Below, piece by piece: positions 24,766 through 64,000 of a stretch of DNA of 64,000 nucleotides. This stretch comes from Squalus acanthias. Its lineage: Eukaryota. Each line of letters begins with the position of its first letter. Position 1 is the first letter of the stretch. The stretch is taken from positions 35,900,001 through 35,964,000 of the forward strand of contig CM059432.1 in NCBI GenBank assembly GCA_030390025.1. The letters run 5' to 3'. The position numbers were made by a program, and so were the translations under genes. The notes beneath the pieces are model-generated. The model saw only the letters and a list, made by a program, of their open reading frames with translations. It was not told the origin of the DNA and ran no database searches.

Positions 24766-24800
24766 ATGGGGGACGCTTATGACCCAGAGCACCCGACCGA
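24766..24800 (+). CDS. setd2: Histone H3K36 methyltransferase SETD2, coding exon 1
   Basis: AAG ATG G...ACC GA|gtaagt encodes MGDAYDPEHPT(E), matching recalled human MGDFYDPEHPTP. In-frame TAG upstream at 24748; phase 2 donor. Confidence 0.92.
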
Positions 24801-27800
24801 GTAAGTGATCAAAATATCTCATTATTATCACTTAATTGATTTATTTAATTACTACCCGGTAGGTTTCCAGTGAAACTTACATTTAGGAAATGAAATGTGA
24901 TTTGGGTGGGAGGGGGAGAGGGTGCAAAAAATAGGAGTTTGGACTGTTTTGGGAAGCAGTGCCCCAGGGGAAGGTTTTGAAGGGCTGGAGCCCAGGCCCC
25001 TGTGATGGTCACTCATCCCTCATGTTTTAATCCCCCCCACTCCCACTCCTCCCTATTTTGGCTCCAGCCATTTCCCAATCTTGTGTAGCTCGAAGGTACA
25101 ATAAATGGCGGGTAAACTTTGAAAGGGGGAGGATAAAACACACACAGGATAGCTTTGGGGAAGGGAGACACAAGGCCTGAGATCCACGGCGCTCGCGTAC
25201 TTGTAATGGGCGGTCGGTGAAGCTTGCGGCACCGAAAAGAAAGGGGGAGGGGGGAGGTAGGGCCCTGAGAGCAGCCTCGGTTAGATTTTAACTGGACAGT
25301 GGTACAGAGGGAGGGAGAATGGTGGGTGGAGGAGGAGGTGAACACACAGAGAGAGGGGTTGGTTGGAGAGGGAGATAAACAGGGTGGCTCTCTTACTTGG
25401 CAAAGTGCTGGTGTTTGGTATAAAACACTCAGCAACTGGCCCCATCTCATTGCACTGAACATAATGGGGGCAGAATGAAGGGCAATAAACAGACTGGGCA
25501 ACTTAGCCAGCCAAAAACCAAATACACAGTGGCCATCATTTACCCAAGAAGACAGTTGGATGCCATCTTGAGTCATTTCAAGCTGTTATCACAAACTCTT
25601 ATAGCCATGAGGGAGAAAATTCATGACAAATTTTATAGTAAACCACGTGCAAAGTATATTTTTGAAGAAAAACCCTTTCGCTTGCAAGTCTGCTAGACTG
25701 CGGTGACCTCTGTAAATCTCCACGTGCATAACAGGAAGAATTTTACTTACTTAAAAATGAAACAAAAAAATTCAAATGAGGAGGGAGCACTTTCTGTAAT
25801 TAAAAACCAGTACTCAGGAGTAGGAAGTCCTTTTATTTATTTTCTAAGCTGGAATTTGACATACTGCATATATTTAAATTGAGGATCCCGCAGAATATTC
25901 TGGAGATACGCAGCAGGTCAGTCTCGGAGAGGTGGCTTCATGGTGCAGGTGAGGACCCTTCATCAGATATGAACGGGGAGGCACCAGAAACATTGACTTG
26001 CTTTTTTTATTTGCTCCTTCAGATGCTGTCTGTCCCGATGTGGATTTCTAGCAATTAATATGTTTGTTTTGCTTTCATGTGCATTTTTTTCTCTCGTCGC
26101 TTGAGTTGCACTTCAGTTATGGAATAACAAAAATTAATCAGCACAGGCCCCCCCCCCCCCCCCCCCCCCCTGAGTTTTCTCCTGAAGAAAAGCACTTGTG
26201 TTTATATAGGGCTTTTCACCACCACAGGATGTCCCAAAGTGCATCATAGCCAATGAAGTACTTTTGAAGTGTAGTCACTGTTGTATTGTAGGGTAATGTG
26301 GCAGCCAATTTGCGCACAGCAAGGTCGTACAAACCAAATAATCTGTTTGGTGACGTTGGTTGAGTGATAAATATTGGCCAGGACACTGGGGAGAGAGAGC
26401 TCCCCTGCTCTTTGAATAGTGCCTTGGGATCTTTAACATCCACCTGAGAGGGCCACTGTTTAACATCTCGGCCAAATGATGGCACCACTCACAGTGAGAA
26501 CTTCCTCAGTACTCCATTGCTGTCTTGGTGTATGAGCCTAGATGGTGGTTGTTTCCGAGTATTCGACCATGCAGAGTATCCCAGCCGAGTCCAATGCTCA
26601 TCTTGTCCTCACCTGGTATCCCCAAACATGCTGCAGCTTCCATCAGGAGTAGCTTGATCTTGATTATTAGTGGGTAAGGTAGTGTAGTGTTTATGTTAGC
26701 AGATTAGTAACCCAGAGGCTTGGACTAATAATTTAGAGAACATGAGTTCAAATCTCTCCATGGCATTTTGAAAATTTGAAGTTAGTTTGAACAATCTGGA
26801 AATAGAAAGCTGGTATCAGTAAAAGTAACCATGAAGCTGTCAGATTGTTGTAAAAACCCAACTGCTTCACTGATGTCTTTTAGGGAAAGAAACCTGCCGT
26901 CTTTACCTGGTCTGATCTATATGTGACTCCAGTCCCACACCAACTCATAACTGTGCACTGCAGCCAGTCAGTTGCATCAAACCGCTACAAACACAGACTT
27001 CAGCGGCTCAAGAAGAAGGGCCACCACCAACATTGAAGGATGGGCAATAAATGCTGGCCTTGCCCACATCGTTTATTAAAAAAAAAAGGAACAGGAGCCC
27101 TGGCTGATTTGTTTCCCTCCCTTCCCTTCTGCCCATGGACACTGAAGTCAATTACCTTTTGGCTACAATCAACCTACTCCGCGTAGATTGGGATCATGAG
27201 TTTGGGTCCTTCTGGGCTGTATTGCTCAGTATTAAACCATGCTGTGCCTTGATCATCTAAGGAATGTGGGGAAGTTGAGGAATTCCCTTGGGGAGAAGGT
27301 ATGGTCGATGAGGCTATATTTTAAGCAAGGTGTTTTTAATACTGCTGTTAGGAAATTGCAAAGAATGAGATACTTTGAGGTTAATATTTGGTGTTGGCCT
27401 TTGTATGGTTGCCATTGGTTTCTTGACCAGTGTCTTTCTCTCTCTGTTATATCATGCAGTGTTATCGGTGGAGTATCCAGCTACATTCACTTTCACCCAG
27501 CAATGCTATTGTAGACTGCGGCCGTTGAAAATTGAGTTGTATCTTGCGAGGGCATGTTAAGCTAGAGTGAAGTACCACAACGACTTGCGTTTATATAGCA
27601 CCTTAAATGTATAAAATGTCAGAAGGCGCTTTACAAGAGGGACAGATACACTGAGCCTAGAAGGAGAGCTTATGATGGGTGATTGAAGGCTTGGTGAAAC
27701 GATAGGCTTTGAGAAAGAAAGACTCGCATTTGCATAGCGCCTTTCACCACCTCAGGATGTCCCAAAGCGCTTCACAGCCAATGAAGGACTTTTGAAGTGT

Positions 27801-40752: not shown

Positions 40753-43700
40753 CGTGAGGCCTTAACTCAGAATGTGTCACTGGGAAGGGGAGACAGTGGG
40801 AGGTGGTGGGGAGAGAAAAGAGTGTCAGCTTAGCTCACTTGGAAACACGGTCACCTCTGGGTCAGAAGTCATCCCTCCTATCGGGAGCTGCACGTGTAAT
40901 CAAGATTACAGTGGAGTAAAGCTTCATAGGGTCTTGCCATGTATGAGAAGGAAGGATGGAGTTTTAGTAGTAGCTCATTAAACGAGGAATATTGCCAAGG
41001 AGGAAGAACTCAGTGATTGAATGGTGCCAGCAAATCATTTAACGCCCACCTGAGAAGCAGACGGAACTTAGTTGGGTGTCAGCCGTGGCTCAGCGGTCGC
41101 ACTCTCGCCTCTGAGTCAGAAGGTTGTGGGTTCAAGCCCCACTCCAGAGACTTGAGCCTAAAATCCAGGCAGGCTGGACTGTCCGAGGTGCCAACTGTCT
41201 CCTCAGGTGGAAGTAAAAGATCCCATGGAACTATTTGAAGAAGAGCATGGGAGTTCTTCCATTGTCCTGGCCAATATTTATCCCTCAACCAGCACCTAAA
41301 ACCGAAGTTCTGGTCATTTATTTTATTGATGTTTATGGGCTCTTGCTGAGCGCAAATTAGTTGCTGCATTTCCGACACTTCAAAAGTACTTCATTAGCTG
41401 TAGAGTGCTTTGGGACGTCCTGAGGTCTCTTTGTTTACCAGCTCTTCTGAAGGAGAACACCTCTGAAAATGCAGGATTCCTTCAGTACCCCACTGTCGTG
41501 CAGTCTCGATAACAGTTGGCAGAGGTGCCACTTTTCAGATGAACCATTAATCCTAAGTCCTGACAACACTCATGGGTGGATGAAAGAGAAGAATGCAAGA
41601 TTGGTGTCCTCATCCTTCATCCAAAACCCATCTTGTGAAACCAAACCGTAATGGGAGTGAATCACAGGATATATTAAGCGTAACCAATGTACCATTGAAT
41701 AAATTAAACTGGAGGATGTTCAATGAGGGCTTGCCAGAGCTCTGAAATCTGTTGAAGCTGCAGTTTATTTTTAAGAATATTTATTAATATGCTTCTGGAA
41801 AGTCATTAGAACCCTTTGGTAAATTGAGAAGTCTAGACTTAAAAATATGTTTTTACCAAAGTTGCGCTCTCAAGATAATTACAGATGAGGGAGGCCATTC
41901 GGCCCATCTTAATTCATCAATCCAGAGAAATCCTATAGTCGTTTCATTGTAGCATCCGATTGATTCTTGAGTGTTTCCGGAATTTTTGCCTCCACCATTA
42001 TCTGGGAGTCTATTCCAAGCGTTGACCCCTTTGTGTGACGAAGAACTTTCTGATATCAGTCCTCAGTTTGCCTTTTACTAGTTTGAGCCTCAGTCTGTGT
42101 GTAGCAATTTTGCTGGTTCCCAGTAGGCTCCCTGTTTGTTTATACACAGGACATGAGCTTTTATCTCAGCTGAAGCAGAACCAGTTATGGGTTGGGTTCA
42201 CAACGGTCAAACCGGTTTACCTGAATGAGATTTCCTCCGCTGGATAATATCACAGCTCACTAATGGTAACAGGGTATTGGTTGGGAGCGTGGTGTGCGAG
42301 GGAGCTGGATTAATATCAGTAGAGATAGCCAGTGACACAGGGTGCTGGGGGGAGGGGTAACTGAGTGACAATGTGATAGAATAAAACCACATCATTTTTT
42401 TTTTAATGCCCCATGCATCCGGGTTTGCTAGCAGCAGCGTCCAGAAAATGAATCTTTAAATTCCTGAACACTCCAGGACAATCCAATAATGGTTATGTTA
42501 CTGGGCTAGTAATCCAGAGGCCTGGACTGATGATCTGGAAAGATGAGTTCAGATCTCACCACGGCAGCTGGGGAATTTAAATTCAGTTAATTAAATAATC
42601 TGGAATTTAAAAAAAGCTCGTTTCAGTAATGGTGACCATGAAACTGTCGTAAGATGGTCGTAAAAACCCATCTGGTTCACTAATGTCCTTTAGGGAAGGA
42701 AATCTGCCGTCCTTACCTATATGTGACTCCAGACCCACCGCAATGTGGTTGACTCTTAACTGCCCTCTGAAATAGCAGCTCACCACCACCTTCTCGAGGG
42801 CAATTAGGATGGGCAATAAATGCTGGCCTTGCCAGTGACGCCCACGTCCCGTGACCGAATTTAAAAAAAAAAAATCCTGGAGGGTTGGCAAACCCTTTCT
42901 TTAGACGTGGTCCAGGTACGGGTGGAGGACAGGTATGACATGAAACGCTCGCGGATTGTGTCAACGAGGTGATGTCTCGCACAAGGCTTTGCCTGGGAGG
43001 ATAATCAAGCAGGCAGATAACGGCGGTTCCACTGTAATATTCACTTTGTCGTCCGATTTAAATTAAAAAAAATAACTTTTCTTTCTTTCCTTCTCCCAAG
43101 GGCGCATGCCTCTCCTCACCCTCCATCACCCACGAGGGAAGGTTGGACGGAACTGCAGATGTCGCCTGGACCATCAACGCCTCTCCACGTTCAGTCCACA
43201 GGAGACGTGCTTGTTGTGGGGTGAGACAGACAACACTCTCTCTTCTTGCTCTCGCTCTCGCTTTGGAAGTCCAATCGGGTGTTCCAAGTTTAAGGAATCC
43301 AGTGCTGTATGGAAAGAGGGGTGGAGGGCGGGAGAGAAAGAGTGCTTGTGTATATGTTTCTGCCATTAGATATCTTTAAGGCCGTTTAACAGCAGTTGTC
43401 CCTATTTTTACTTGCAAAAATAGGGGTGTAGTTCTCTAGTCAACCTTGGGGAACACCTGCATCAACCTGGCCGACATCGGCAAAATCCTTCCAAGTATTG
43501 AAGCCTAGGCTTGATGAGAAGGGGAAATAACACCAGCCACTTGGATGTCATTTGATAATGGCTATATAGTGACCTGTTTTGGTATTGGACTAATTTATTA
43601 ATCTATCTATTTAATATATTAATTAATCTGTCCACTTCTGGTCAACTTTTTCTATTTATAAATTCTTATATCCACATTTATTGTAAAAAATTACCCATGT

Positions 43701-50182: not shown

Positions 50183-50345
50183 TGTCACACTACACGATGG
50201 GGGATGTCCTCACAGTGATATTGTCACACTACACGATGGGGGATGTCCTCACGGTGATGGTGTCGCACTGCCCGATGGAGAATGTCCTTACAAGTAATGG
50301 TGTCACTACACAATGGAGGATGTCCTTACAGTGATGGTGTCGCAC
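50183..50345. repeat. ~39-bp minisatellite, about 4 copies
   Basis: Unit approximately TGTCACACTACACGATGGGGGATGTCCTCACAGTGATGG. Confidence 0.8.
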
Positions 50346-57922: not shown

Positions 57923-57938
57923 AGAAGACGAGAACGCA
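57923..57938 (+). CDS. setd2: SETD2 16-nt microexon (exon 2)
   Basis: T-rich tract, ctgcaacag|AGAAGACGAGAACGCA|gtaagg, encoding (E)EDENA. It converts the phase-2 end of exon 1 to the phase-0 start of exon 3; human exon 2 is, from memory, also 16 nt. Confidence 0.88.
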
Positions 57939-58499: not shown

Positions 58500-59880
58500 C
58501 ATAAGAACATAAGAATTAGGAGCAGGAGTAGGCCATATGGCCCTTCGAGCCTGCTCCGCCATTCGATAAGATCATGGCTGATCTTCGACCACAACTCCAC
58601 TTGCCCGCCCGATCCCCATATCCCTTGATTCCTCTAGAGTCCAAAAATCTATCTATCTCAGCCTTGAATATACTCAACGACTGAGCATCCACAGCCTTCT
58701 GGGGTAGAGAATTCCAAAGATTCACCACCCTCTGCGTGAAGAAATTTCTCCCCATCTCAGTCCTAAACTTTACTGGCAAGCCTATTATGTGGCACTTTGT
58801 CGAACGCCTTTTGGAAATCCATGTACACCACGTCAACCGCATTGCCCTCATCACAACCCTCTCTGTTACCTCATCAAAAAACTCGATCAAGTTGGTTGAA
58901 CATGATTTACCTTTAACAAATCTGTGCTGGCTTTCCTTAATTAATCCACACTGTTAATTTTGTCCCTGATTATTGTTTCTAAAAGCTTCCCCACTACTGA
59001 GGTTAAATTGACCAGCCTATATTTGCTGGGTTTATCTTTACACCCTTTTTTGAACAAGGGTGTAACATTTGCAATTCTCCAGTCCTCCGGCACCACCCCC
59101 ATATGTAAGGAGGATTGGAAGATTATGGCCAGTACCTCTGCGATTTCTTCCTTCACTTCCCTCAGTGTCCTAGGATGCATCCCATCTGGTTCTGGTGACT
59201 TATCTACTTTAAGTACAGCCAGCCTTTCTAGTACCTCGTCTTTATCAATTCTTATCCCATCCAGTATCTCCTCTACCTCCTCCTACTATGTCTATGGCAG
59301 CATCCTCTTCCTTGGTGAAGACAGATGCAAAGTAGTCATTTAGTACCTCAGCCATACCCTCTGCCTCCATGCATAGGCCTCCTTTTTGGTCCCTAATCGG
59401 CCCCACACACCCCTCTTAATACCCGTTTACTATTTATATGCCTATAGAAGACTTTTGGATTTCCTTTTCTGTTAGCTGCCATTCTATTCTCCTACCCTCT
59501 CTTTGCTCTTACTTTCTTTTTCACTTCTCCTCTGACCTTTCTATATTTAGCCTGATTCTCAGATGTATTCTCGACCTGACATCTGTGAGACACGATCTTT
59601 TTCTGCTTCATCTTACTCTCTCTCTCTCTCTCTCTCTTCATCCAGGGAGCTCTGACTTTTGTTGCCCTACCTTTCCCCCTAGTGGGAATGTACCTCGACT
59701 GTACCCCAACTGTTTCCTCTTTAAAGGCAGCCCATTGTTCCACTACAGTTTTGCCTGCCAATCTTTCATTCCAATTTACCCGGGCCAGATCCATTCTCAT
59801 CCCACTGAAATTTGCCTTCCTCCAATTAAATATTTTTACTCTAGATTGCTCCCTGTCCTTTTCCACAGCTAATCTAAATC
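58500..59880 (-). mobile_element. CR1 LINE fragments (internally deleted RT + tail)
   Basis: FNWRKANFSGMR, MHPRTLREV, EDWRIANVTPLFKKG, FFTQRVVNLWNSLP. Confidence 0.85.
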
Positions 59881-60768
59881 ATATGGGGTCTTTCAAAATC
59901 ATGATGGGTCTGGACAGAGTAGATAGAGAGAAACTGTTCCCATTGACAGAAGGGTCGAGAACCAGAGGACACAGATTTAAGGAAATTGGCAAAAGAACCA
60001 AGGGCGAGTGGTTAGGATCTGGAATGCACTGCCTGAAAGGGTGGTGGAGGCAGATTCAATCACTGCTTTCAAAAGGGAGTTGGATAAGTATCTGAAGGGA
60101 AAACATTTACAGGGCTACGGGGAAAGAGCAGGGGAGTGGGACTAGCTGTAGTGCTCTTGCAGAGAGCCAGCACGGACTCGAGGGGCCGAATGGTCGTCTT
60201 TCGTGCTGTAACCTTTCTATGATTCTGTGACTATGCCCCCTAGTTTCTAGACTCTCCAGCCAGAGGAAACAACCTCTTGACATCCAGCCTGTCAATCCCT
60301 CTCATTCTTCTAAACTCCAGAGTATAGGCTCAATCTCTCCTCATAAGACAACCCTGTCATCCCAGGGATCAATCTAGTGAACCTTTTTTGCACCGCCTCT
60401 AATTCCTCACCTAATTGGCCAGTCTTCATGACCAGGGTCTAGACAAAGAGCAGGCTATTTGACTGTGGGACGCACCACCGCTGTGCCCAATCCTGTCCTC
60501 GGCTGATGTCCACCCACGTGCACTTTTCTAACGGGGGCGGTCACTGGGTAACTATCCGGAGCAGGAACCCGCCCTAGCACAAGGGTACTGAGGCCAATTG
60601 TAACTGAGATCAGCAAAGTCATCACAAACTGAGAGCTTTGGGATGCCCTGTTCTTGCATCTGGCGTAAAGACCTGTTGCCTTGATTGGCATTCCTTTGAG
60701 AGTGAATTGTAATGAAATGAACGTGAACTTGCAGAGCTGTACCTAAAGTGTGCGCAATACCGTTGCAG

Positions 60769-63700
60769 GTCAAGTCGGAGAATCCATTGGTATTGAGTGT
60801 TCTCAAGGGGCAAGTGACAAAAGGCTGTAGTCGATTTCTACCTAAGGGCACCAAGGCAAAAGTCAACCTGGAGGACCAAGGACGGCAGAAGGTGTCTTTT
60901 ACCTTCAATGTAACAAAGACCTTACGAAATAGGTTCCAAAGTGCCATTGGGACTGAGCCGGATGAAGTCAAGATTCCACCCCTGACGTTGCCTCCCATTT
61001 CTGTGAAAGGGAGCCAGGACAGTAAAAGTGACACTGATTCGGCCGATGCTACAGAGATTGCTACCTCACCGCCCAAATCCAAGGTAGAGTGGAGCAAGGT
61101 GCACTTCAAGAAGAAGCATCTCAACGATGCAGCCAAACCTGTGAGTTTGTCTGACAGGGAACCGTGTAGCTCGTCGGTGGAGGAACCTGTGGATGTAGCA
61201 GTCAAGAAAGATTCTACAGGAGGAAGTGAAACTGTGACAAAGGTGGCTGTTGAACCGAAACCGTCAAATCAGAATCTCAGTACATCCCACATTGGGAAGG
61301 GTGATAACTTGGAGGAGTTCAAGAGTGTCTCCTCATCTTCTGAAAACGATGAGCTTAGGAAGGTTACTCAGGCAGAAGAAGCAATGCAAGTACAATCAGC
61401 TGGCTCGGAGTCTGAGGGGGATTTATTAAGGAAGTCGCCTAGTTTGAAGTCGCAGGACACGAAAAATGCTGAATCTGATCGAGATGTTAGGAAAAATCCA
61501 ATGGCTTCCAAAATCGATGAGGTAGAAAAGGTTTCCTCTCATTCCAAGTCTGAGCGAGATAAGAGGAGCAGCGGTCGTTCCAAGTCTGAGCGAGATACGA
61601 GAAGGACTTCGTCCCGGTCAAAGTATGGGAGAGAGGAAAGAGTCAGTTCATCTCGATCTCGCTCCGATAGAGATTCAAGGGCACCCTCTTCTTACTCGAA
61701 GTCAGACCGGTCGAGGACCTCTTATTACCGTGAGAAAGACAGAGGATATCGTAGAGGCTCCCCTTACTCAGAAAGGAGCAAATCTTCTCGTTCCAAATTG
61801 GGATCTGATTTAAGAGACGCTTCCTCTTGTTCAGATTCCGAAGAAGATTCCAGAAGGTATCATCCCAGATCAAATGACTTGAGAAGGACTTCATTGCATT
61901 CTAAATCCTATAGAGACTTGAGGAAATACCAGTCACGGTCGGATAGAGATCTGAGGGCAACTTCGTCGTGCTCTGAATCAGAGAGAGAGACTAGAAGGAC
62001 TAAATCTAAGTCAGATAAAATATCCAAAACATCAACGTCTTGTTACGAGTCAGAAAGCTCTAAAATTAATTCTCCTGAACCAGAATTAGATTCCAGGAAA
62101 TTGTCCAAATCGGACAGTCATTCAAAGATATCTTCATACCATTCAAAGTCATCGATTTCTTGTCATAAACCAGAGGTAGTTAAAACAAACTCGTCTGACC
62201 CGGAATTGGACTGCAGGAAAATCTCCAAGTCTGATGGTCATTTGAGGACAACTTCATCTCATTCCAAATCTGTAACCTCTTGCCATGAGGTAGCAGTAAA
62301 GAAGGACTCCCCAGAACCAGAAATGGACTCGAGGAAATGTTCTAAGCTGGACAGTAACTCAAAGACAATTCCATCTCATTCCAAGTCATCCACTTGTTGT
62401 GGAATGGAAGCAATTCAAGGGGACTGCCCAGAGCTAGAATCAGATTCCAGGAGAAGTCACAAGCCTGATATTAATTCAAGGATATCCCCATTACATTCTA
62501 AATCAACTACTTGCTGTGAAATAGAAGTAGTTAAAATGGACTCTTCCGAACCAGAATTGGACTCGTGGACTAACAGTAGGTCAGACAATAACTCAATGGT
62601 AACCCCAACTCGCTCTAAGTCAACTACTTGCTATGAAATGGAAGTAGTTAAAATGGATTCTGCAGGGCCAGAATTGGACCCATGGACTAACAGTAGGTCG
62701 GACAAGAACTCAATGGTAACTCCATCTCATTCTAAGTCGACTACTTGCTATGAAATGGAAGTAACTAAAATGGACTCTTCTGAACCAGAACCGGAATTGG
62801 ACTCGTGGGCAAGCTGTAAGTCAGATCGGCAGTCAAGGATAACTACATCTAGTTCCAGATCCCATAAGATGAGGACTTCGCCCCCTTATACATCTGACAG
62901 GGAATTAAGAAGGACTTCATGCTCTGAGTCAGAAGATGAATTCAGAGAGGTTCCTGAACTGCACAAGTCAGGAACAATGCAGACAGTTTCTAGATCAGAT
63001 GAGATTTGTTCCTCACTTGATCACCAATCGGACAATTATGTAAGCACCTCACCGTATTCTACATCAGATTTACCGAGGACGTTCTGCCACTCCAGACTCG
63101 CTGTTGAAATAGCCGGACCTTCAGCTGGTTCTAAATTAGATGGACCTTTGGCAAAAGTTTCATCTTGCTCAGAATCAGATGAAGAACTGAGATCTTCACC
63201 TCATTGCGAGGCTGATTTGACGGTTTCACCTCGTTCCCTATCAAATGAGTTGCTGTCCCCGCCTCATTTCATAACTAATGATTTGAAAACCTCACCTCAT
63301 TCCAGCCCAGATGAGGTTAAGTCTTTGGCCCACCCAAAACTGGAGGAATTCAGCACTTCGCACTACACCGAGACGGAGGAGATTTTGGCCTGTCCCAAAC
63401 CGGACGAGTCCATCTCTGTGCCCCGCTTGTATTTAGATGCAGCTTGGACCGTTTCGGCTGATGCTGAAAGTTGCACAAGAGACGCAAAACATCAAGGCGA
63501 AGAGTCAACAGAAAATAGGGATGTGGATAGTCGAAGGGAGCAACACACCAGTGAAGGAGATGGTTCTGAATCAAAAAATGATAGACTGTTTCACGATCCA
63601 AATAGCTTTAACAATTGCAAAAGTAAACCGAATGTAGTGCCTGGCGACCAAAATTGGGATTCATTTGAGAAAGTTAGATTGTACACAGATTTGGCCAGCC

Positions 63701-64000
63701 ACCTTACTTTTGAAACTAAGGAGTCTTCAGAAGTGAAGACTGAAAGTCCATCAACAAATAACGAAGAAACCTCTTTCTCTGCTAGACCAGATAGTTCTGT
63801 TAAAGTGGAACCAGAGCAGTCGATGGAAATTTCTGAAGATGAGGAAGAGACCGATGAAGACTTGGCTGTGGAGGTGGCCGAGAGGCCACCGCCTTTGAGC
63901 ACTGCCGACCTGACGAGCTCAAATGAAGCGGAACACAGTTTACAGAATTACAAAACCAAGTCTTACTGTGACAGCAGCTCTATGAAGGCAGAATACAACA
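60769..64000 (+). CDS. setd2: SETD2 giant exon 3 (partial, >1077 codons, runs off the window)
   Basis: gttgcag|GTC AAG; VKSEN...SRFLPKGTKAKVNLEDQGRQKVSFTF...SPPKSKVEWSKVHFKKKHL matches recalled SETD2 SRFLPKGTKTKVNLEEQGRQKVSFSF and SPPKSRVELGKIHFKKHL. An RS/RD-rich block follows, and I found no stop up to 64000. Confidence 0.95.
62023..62853 (+). repeat. Coding tandem repeat, 7 x 117-123 nt (39-41 aa), inside SETD2 exon 3
   Basis: Units start at 62023, 62143, 62263, 62380, 62497, 62614 and 62731; consensus approximately SKSTTCxExEVVKxDSxEPELDSxxxSKSDxxSxxTPSH. Confidence 0.9.

What the first reader, a model, noticed from the sequence alone, without database searches (positions are those of the whole stretch)
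62023..62853. Seven-copy 39-41 aa Ser/Cys tandem repeat expanded inside SETD2's N-terminal region
Seen: SKTSTSCYESESSKINSPEPELDSRKLSKSDSHSKISSYH / SKSSISCHKPEVVKTNSSDPELDCRKISKSDGHLRTTSSH / SKSVTSCHEVAVKKDSPEPEMDSRKCSKLDSNSKTIPSH / SKSSTCCGMEAIQGDCPELESDSRRSHKPDINSRISPLH / SKSTTCCEIEVVKMDSSEPELDSWTNSRSDNNSMVTPTR / SKSTTCYEMEVVKMDSAGPELDPWTNSRSDKNSMVTPSH / SKSTTCYEMEVTKMDSSEPEPELDSWASCKSDRQSRITTSS. Units 5-7 are the most alike (recent, polar expansion), all indels keep the frame, and SKS, Cys and PELD are largely retained. Established: the long N-terminal region of SETD2 is disordered and influences its stability. Inference: a lineage-specific multivalent module (phospho-sites, degrons or Cys/His metal or redox sites) that I do not recall in human SETD2.
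Basis: partly seen in the sequence, partly recalled or inferred. Interest (0 to 1): 0.72.

Follow-up and report, generated by a model that had tools for sequence, protein, structure and literature searches.

The report
Shark-wide repeat inside SETD2's floppy arm
Sharks, rays and a chimaera carry seven to ten tandem copies of a 39-amino-acid stretch that bony vertebrates keep once in the unstructured arm of the histone enzyme SETD2; it looks like an old, tolerated spacer expansion rather than a new functional domain.

Summary
The array is real: seven in-frame units at 62023-62853 in the giant exon of shark SETD2. A spliced contig crosses it without differences. It is not a recent expansion of one lineage. 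All 14 cartilaginous-fish sequences compared carry it: 7 units in 11, 8 in Heterodontus, 10 in Heptranchias, 9 in Callorhinchus. One laid run skips exactly one unit. None of 222 other SETD2 proteins has two units. Bony vertebrates keep one copy of the unit core at the same position. The array is predicted disordered and evolves as fast as the flanking disordered region; its cysteines are not slow. Between-unit dN/dS is 0.33-0.54. Only one aspartate column stands out (p=0.04). Best reading: an old tandem amplification that works as a charge-patterned disordered spacer with flexible copy number. A dosage-tuned motif module remains possible. I found no description in print. A side find in snakes, a SETD2-transposase fusion isoform, may deserve more attention.

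The parts
24766..24800 (+). SETD2 first coding exon (ATG at 24766, GT donor at 24801)
   Evidence: tblastn with shark SETD2 N-termini; sequence
43101..43220 (+). SETD2 second coding exon, 120 nt
   Evidence: its last 14 bases appear in the spliced loose end of run X1
57923..57938 (+). 16-nt micro-exon
   Evidence: pattern match with AG/GT ends; present in the loose ends of contigs from runs X1, X22 and X9
60769..64000 (+). giant exon coding the disordered N-terminal region; runs off the window
   Evidence: open frame; three runs' contigs begin at 60768-60769 with spliced loose ends
62023..62142 (+). unit 1 (40 aa); colinear homologue of the single copy in bony vertebrates
62143..62262 (+). unit 2 (40 aa)
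62263..62379 (+). unit 3 (39 aa)
62380..62496 (+). unit 4 (39 aa)
62497..62613 (+). unit 5 (39 aa); unit-5/6 class, where copy number changes
62614..62730 (+). unit 6 (39 aa); unit-5/6 class
62731..62853 (+). unit 7 (41 aa); its 2-residue insertion is shared by sharks and rays

Best explanation
A single ~39-aa segment just behind SETD2's RS-rich region was multiplied in frame inside the giant exon, early in cartilaginous fishes (shown: distribution and homology; inferred: direction of change, and unequal crossover or slippage as the mechanism). Copies still turn over at the unit-5/6 end (shown). The product is a disordered, Ser/Thr-rich, near-neutral polyampholyte tract with an acidic core followed by a basic patch in each unit (predicted). 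It most likely works as a spacer and as part of the redundant, length-dependent N-terminal arm that speeds proteasomal turnover and scaffolds partners in human SETD2 (inferred from human data). Selection keeps the frame, disorder and charge pattern, not a fixed copy number or a specific ligand site.
For: Copy number 7, 8, 9, 10 among 14 sequences and a one-unit skip in run X9. Mean site rate 1.31 in the array against 1.47 and 1.25 downstream, 0.83 in the RS-rich part and 0.52 in AWS-SET. Invariant columns 29% in the array, 32% downstream, 93% in SET. Acidic and basic residues are slower than hydrophobic ones (0.94 and 1.0 against 1.78). AlphaFold pLDDT about 25-34 over the array with no secondary structure. 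No Pfam match. The arm is not unusually long: anchor-to-AWS median 1224 aa in cartilaginous fishes, 1311 in Amia, 1235 in lungfish, 1299 in sturgeon. An unrelated repeat begins at the same site in the toad Spea. In human cells, N-terminal segments destabilise SETD2 cumulatively (PMC8405934), and deleting residues 504-816 alone has minimal effect (PMC10557632).
Against: Pooled between-unit dN/dS is below 1 (0.33-0.54). One Asp column is almost invariant (94 of 95 elasmobranch units; permutation p=0.038). Columns shared between units tend to be slow between species (Spearman -0.38, p=0.016). A Cys stays near the unit start in 87 of 95 units. Seven units persist in 11 of 13 elasmobranch sequences, which is stable for a dispensable tract. 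The S-P core is kept in 104 of 109 bony-vertebrate proteins, so the ancestral copy probably does something.
Confidence: 0.65

Rival explanations
1. Dosage-tuned motif module: each unit carries a short linear motif (Lys-x-x-Ser-Pro with an acidic E-x-E-L-D tail) that docks a kinase, lamin-related partner or ligase, and multiplying it raises avidity or turnover of SETD2.
For: The motif is kept once in bony vertebrates and maps near residue 530 of primate SETD2, at the start of the 504-816 region that shares lamin/CDK1 scaffolding (PMC10557632). dN/dS below 1. Paralogue-conserved columns are slower in orthologues. S/T-P-x-x-S/T/E/D sites number 2-8 per array against 1-4 in the next 280 aa, and SUMO-type sites 1-5 against 0-1.
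Against: S-P at the core is kept in units 1 and 3 (7 and 10 of 11) but in 0 of 11 for units 5, 6 and 7, the ones that expand. FBW7-type sites are absent from 5 of 14 arrays; skates lose the SUMO-type lysines of units 3, 5 and 6; SPOP-type sites are sporadic. Rate differences among columns are not significant overall (p=0.053; p=0.23).
Confidence: 0.2
2. Caspase-cleavage cassette: the E-x-D followed by a small residue in most units offers repeated cut sites that would release the catalytic part from the RS-rich speckle-targeting arm.
For: The Asp is present in 94 of 95 elasmobranch units and never becomes Glu; Glu lies two residues before it in 86 of 95 and Ser follows in 61 of 95. It has 1 parsimony step over seven units (p=0.038 after choosing among columns). 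The caspase preference itself is recalled, not from a call.
Against: Chimaera units have Glu there in 4 of 9. Tetrapod single copies mostly have Gly or Arg at that place. Several unit-6-class copies have Pro after the Asp. A search for SETD2 with 'caspase cleavage' listed no paper on the subject (listing only).
Confidence: 0.06
3. Cys/His metal-binding or redox module: units fold on zinc or act as thiol switches.
For: Cys near the unit start in 87 of 95 elasmobranch units; terminal His in 66 of 95, changing slowly; Cys columns of units 1 and 2 are invariant.
Against: Array Cys columns average 1.79 parsimony steps against 1.36 downstream and 0.00 in the SET region. Only 4 of 9 chimaera units have the Cys. 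Cys count per array (8-17) resembles the next 280 aa (6-14). No fold is predicted, although AlphaFold2 without metal can miss metal-dependent folds.
Confidence: 0.05
4. Assembly artefact or sequence that is spliced out.
For: Tandem repeats are prone to mis-assembly; one run's contig lacks one unit.
Against: Units are only 32-79% identical, are position-matched across species, and lie in a spliced contig with no differences.
Confidence: 0.01

Closest known systems
Disordered N-terminal region of human SETD2 (regions A 1-503, B 504-816, C 817-1322; PMC10557632, PMC8405934)
   Same: Same protein region. The single-copy homologue of the unit lies near residue 530 in primates, at the start of region B.
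   Different: Primates and other bony vertebrates have one copy; cartilaginous fishes have 7-10. No repeat is mentioned in the passages I read.
Elongation of long internal exons that code disordered regions (PMC9825244)
   Same: A long internal exon of a nuclear protein grows in frame; repeat expansion is named there as a possible mechanism (passages).
   Different: SETD2 does not occur in that paper's main text; here the unit is long, traceable to a conserved motif, and old.
Functional repeats in giant exons, such as BRCA2 BRC repeats and Ki-67 repeats (recalled)
   Same: Units of tens of residues repeated in one large exon of a nuclear protein.
   Different: No Pfam match to those or any family. 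No strongly conserved binding motif stands above the flanking rate here, apart from one Asp.

Membership tests
SETD2 (KMT3A) orthologues | Best sequence matches are SETD2 proteins with AWS, SET, WW and SRI domains | tested here: met
   Top 15 hits are cartilaginous-fish SETD2, 54-91% identity; domains confirmed in P0002. The domains themselves lie beyond the window.
SETD2 (KMT3A) orthologues | Array is part of the spliced coding sequence | tested here: met
   Contig of run X1 joins exon 2, the micro-exon and 60769-63125 with 0 differences; the run's RNA label is a guess, but the splice junction shows processed transcript.
Pan-vertebrate SETD2 repeat | Two or more units in bony vertebrates | tested here: not met
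   0 of 222 non-chondrichthyan proteins with two hits at 8 bits or more; the set includes fragments and several isoforms per species.
Known Pfam repeat or domain families (BRC, Ki-67 and others) | Profile match | tested here: not met
   0 families at E up to 1
Cys/His zinc-binding repeats | Invariant, fixed-spacing Cys/His ligands | tested here: not met
   Array Cys 21% invariant against 100% in the SET region
Cys/His zinc-binding repeats | Metal binding in vitro | not testable with these tools
   Needs titration
Multivalent SPOP or FBW7 degron arrays | Consensus degron kept in most units and species | tested here: not met
   SPOP-type 0-1 per array; FBW7-type 0-4 and absent in 5 of 14 (the patterns are recalled consensus motifs)
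Caspase substrate sites | Asp at P1, Glu at P3, small residue at P1' | tested here: inconclusive
   94, 86 and 61 (Ser) of 95 elasmobranch units; not kept in chimaera or tetrapods; cleavage untested
Intrinsically disordered region expanded in a long exon | No predicted fold; rate like flanking disordered sequence; in-frame length changes | tested here: met

The most novel reading that the evidence does not exclude
The unit is an unrecognised short linear motif conserved in all jawed vertebrates at the boundary of SETD2's speckle-targeting and lamin/CDK1-scaffolding regions. Cartilaginous fishes multiplied it 7-10 times as a dosage dial (a docking site, or a repeated Asp-directed cleavage site) for SETD2 turnover. 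The shark array would then point to a specific functional site near residue 530 of human SETD2.
Probability: 0.22. Interest if true: 0.68.

Novelty: new variant of a known kind. Interest (0 to 1): 0.36.

Why it matters
SETD2's N-terminal arm controls its stability and has no mapped motifs in the passages I read. The shark array marks out a short segment that bony vertebrates have kept in one copy, and nature supplies versions with 1, 7, 8, 9 and 10 copies (possibly 6). That makes a clean test of whether this arm works by length and charge or by specific motifs. If the answer is length and charge, the array is an ordinary exon expansion and a modest clade marker for cartilaginous fishes.

Tried and rejected
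No whole genome is held for this window, so the end of the giant exon and other genomic copies of the unit were not examined. A unit-profile search of proteins of 73-2000 aa found 1 of 1906 candidates, a partial Mustelus SETD2; this is weak evidence that the unit occurs nowhere else. A phmmer search of 1.84 billion representatives gave 24 hits; the 11 of 20 looked up that carry a name are all SETD2. ESM Atlas: best score 0.79, a blank. Earlier scan findings: none. No run was on record as RNA; expression rests on the splice junction in contigs. Only 40 of 210 difference rows were shown, so no interspecies dN/dS could be computed. In those rows the array had 6 non-synonymous and 2 synonymous codon changes, the upstream part 10 and 8, the downstream part 8 and 2. 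That is close to the neutral ratio in the array, but the rows are few and selected. 'Recent polar expansion in this species' rejected. Orthology of unit 5 versus unit 6 between sharks and rays is unresolved (14 and 16 of 28 best matches); a batoid-only clade of units 5+6 is weakly rejected (p-AU 0.034, 41 columns). A count of the residue at the Asp position in bony vertebrates was discarded because the pattern often matched an upstream stretch. No lamprey, hagfish, coelacanth or bichir sequence was among the named hits. Literature searches without a relevant paper: SETD2+S624 (wrong residue number, recalled), SETD2+cartilaginous+tandem repeat+shark (34), SETD2+chondrichthy (46; two arterivirus papers), six general terms (49), SETD2+caspase cleavage (51), SETD2+S532 (52), tandem repeat+disordered region+copy number+elasmobranch (58). 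No complex prediction was run, as no partner is claimed.

Full report
Observation. The window holds the 5' part of a shark SETD2 gene on the + strand. Coding exons lie at 24766-24800, 43101-43220 and 57923-57938, and a giant exon starts at 60769 and runs off the window. The closest protein is Pristiophorus SETD2 at 91% identity. A DNA profile from the first five units recovers units 6 and 7 at E 3.7e-25 and 5e-23, and nothing else in the window scores better than E 0.55.

Transcription. A contig of run X1 carries the end of exon 2 and the micro-exon, then follows 60769-63125 with no difference, crossing all seven units. Runs X22 and X9 show the same junction. These runs are not on record as RNA, but a spliced junction shows processed transcript. 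The X9 contig, from another organism, skips exactly 117 bases (62589 to 62707). This is either a six-unit form or a contig collapse between similar units; I could not tell which. Run X19 has seven units without gaps.

Distribution. An iterated unit profile finds 7 units in 11 of 14 cartilaginous-fish sequences (the window, six other sharks, four batoids), 8 in Heterodontus, 10 in Heptranchias and 9 in Callorhinchus, two of these weak. Three further Chiloscyllium entries were left out of that count as near-duplicates; each had 7. None of 222 other proteins (tetrapods, lungfish, sturgeon, gar, bowfin, teleosts; fragments and isoforms included) has two hits at 8 bits; 11 have one. No named cyclostome, coelacanth or bichir sequence was retrieved, so gain in cartilaginous fishes is inferred rather than shown.

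Age and turnover. Shark units 1-4 best match the batoid unit at the same position in 112 of 112 comparisons; units 5, 6 and 7 do so in 14, 16 and 17 of 28. In unit trees, units 1-4 each form supported clades across sharks and rays, and unit 7 separates from the 5/6 class at 97/99 support. Extra copies in Heptranchias (up to 95% identical to each other) and Heterodontus fall in the 5/6 class, and the X9 skip lies there too. The window's own units 5 and 6 differ by dS 0.32-0.41. Chimaera units 1 and 2 group with elasmobranch units 1 and 2; the others are long branches of unsure place.

Origin. Aligning six cartilaginous and 32 bony-vertebrate sequences from a conserved upstream anchor puts unit 1 against a single segment with the pattern acidic, Lys/Arg, Ser-Pro, Glu, Arg-Lys, then Ser-Lys-x-Asp/Glu. 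A profile of all units, compared with a 700-column bony-vertebrate profile, scores best on that same segment (P 0.0014). Bowfin and sturgeon keep the E-L-D part as well. The Lys/Arg-x-Ser-Pro core was found in 104 of 109 bony-vertebrate proteins that had both anchors; 113 of 238 proteins lacked an anchor match and were skipped. In a full-length marmoset protein the motif lies near residue 530. I recall a phosphoserine annotated at about this position in human SETD2; no call confirms it (one search found nothing).

Constraint. Across 11 elasmobranch proteins the mean site rate is 1.31 in the array, 1.47 and 1.25 in the downstream disordered region, 0.83 in the RS-rich part and 0.52 in AWS-SET (the window and Mustelus were left out as incomplete, and the chimaera was not included). 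Charged residues are slower than hydrophobic ones. Cys columns are not slow: 1.79 steps against 1.36 downstream and 0.00 in SET. Pooled dN/dS between the window's units is 0.33 without and 0.54 with a transition bias, and many pairs are near saturation. Against pure drift, one Asp is kept in 94 of 95 elasmobranch units (p=0.038), and columns shared by units are slower between species (rho -0.38, p=0.016). Against a strong shared motif, the overall variation among columns is not significant (p=0.053; p=0.23), and the 40 displayed interspecies differences are mostly non-synonymous in the array. S-P, FBW7-type, SPOP-type and SUMO-type patterns are not kept across units and species (consensus patterns recalled). 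AlphaFold2 gives pLDDT near 30 and no secondary structure; Pfam gives nothing.

Mechanism. In human cells the N-terminal arm lowers SETD2 half-life through several disordered segments acting together, and deleting a PEST motif did not matter (PMC8405934; abstract, introduction and first results sections read). Residues 1-503 target SETD2 to speckles, while 504-816 and 817-1322 redundantly scaffold CDK1 and lamins (PMC10557632, preprint; abstract and passages). A review calls the region mostly unstructured (PMC9167812; passages). The array amplifies the first part of the 504-816 region. The shark arm is no longer than that of bowfin, sturgeon or lungfish, though about 180 aa longer than in tetrapods. 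I therefore read it as a tolerated, charge-patterned disordered spacer that adds to a redundant arm (0.65). The rivals are a multiplied docking motif (0.2), a caspase cassette (0.06) and a metal module (0.05). All functional steps are inferred; none was tested.

Known and new. Growth of long internal exons that code disordered regions is a described process (PMC9825244; passages). I found no paper on this array (the library lacks most subscription journals, and no supplements were read). It is a new variant of a known kind. Its value lies in exposing a conserved single-copy segment and a natural copy-number series.

Side find. Annotated snake SETD2 isoforms replace the WW/SRI half with a Tigger/pogo-type transposase; see Noticed in passing.

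Noticed in passing
P0079 (Python), P0239 (Liasis), P0118 (Crotalus), P0119 (Pantherophis); about 70 aa after the post-SET region: Annotated snake SETD2 isoforms keep AWS-SET but replace WW and SRI with CENP-B-type helix-turn-helix and DDE_1 transposase domains (one search scanned P0079, P0118, P0119). The junction is at the same or nearly the same place in four genera, the transposase parts are 61-63% identical between pythons and colubroids, and the helix-turn-helix is repeated in colubroids. Python and Liasis also have the normal isoform. It resembles SETMAR (recalled): a possible domesticated SET-transposase fusion. These are gene models; transcripts were not checked. No relevant paper (listing only); SETD2 is absent from the main text of bioRxiv 10.1101/2020.05.07.082677, whose supplements I did not see and which may list it.
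   Followed up: partly
P0128 (Spea bombifrons SETD2), residues 530-672: An unrelated short-period repeat (score 138 against 29 for shuffles) begins right behind the same Ser-Pro motif: an independent expansion at the same site.
   Followed up: partly
P0123 (lungfish) 1309-1412; P0198 (Thalassophryne) 724-754: Other lineage-specific tandem repeats (19-aa and 9-aa periods) elsewhere in the SETD2 disordered arm.
   Followed up: no
window 57923-57938: 16-nt micro-exon, confirmed by spliced contigs; human SETD2 has a similarly tiny early exon (recalled).
   Followed up: yes
window 60790-60950: A highly conserved stretch at the start of the giant exon is the only part with pLDDT above 50, predicted as two strands and a helix: a candidate binding element in the disordered arm.
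   Followed up: no
window 50183-50335: Intronic 39-nt tandem repeat, 3.9 copies.
   Followed up: no
window 58516-59878, minus strand: Broken open frames that look like CR1/LINE reverse-transcriptase remnants (recognition recalled, not tested).
   Followed up: no
window 61454-61487: A 34-base stretch matched by an unrelated contig with the same flanks in three runs; probably a chance match to another transcript.
   Followed up: no
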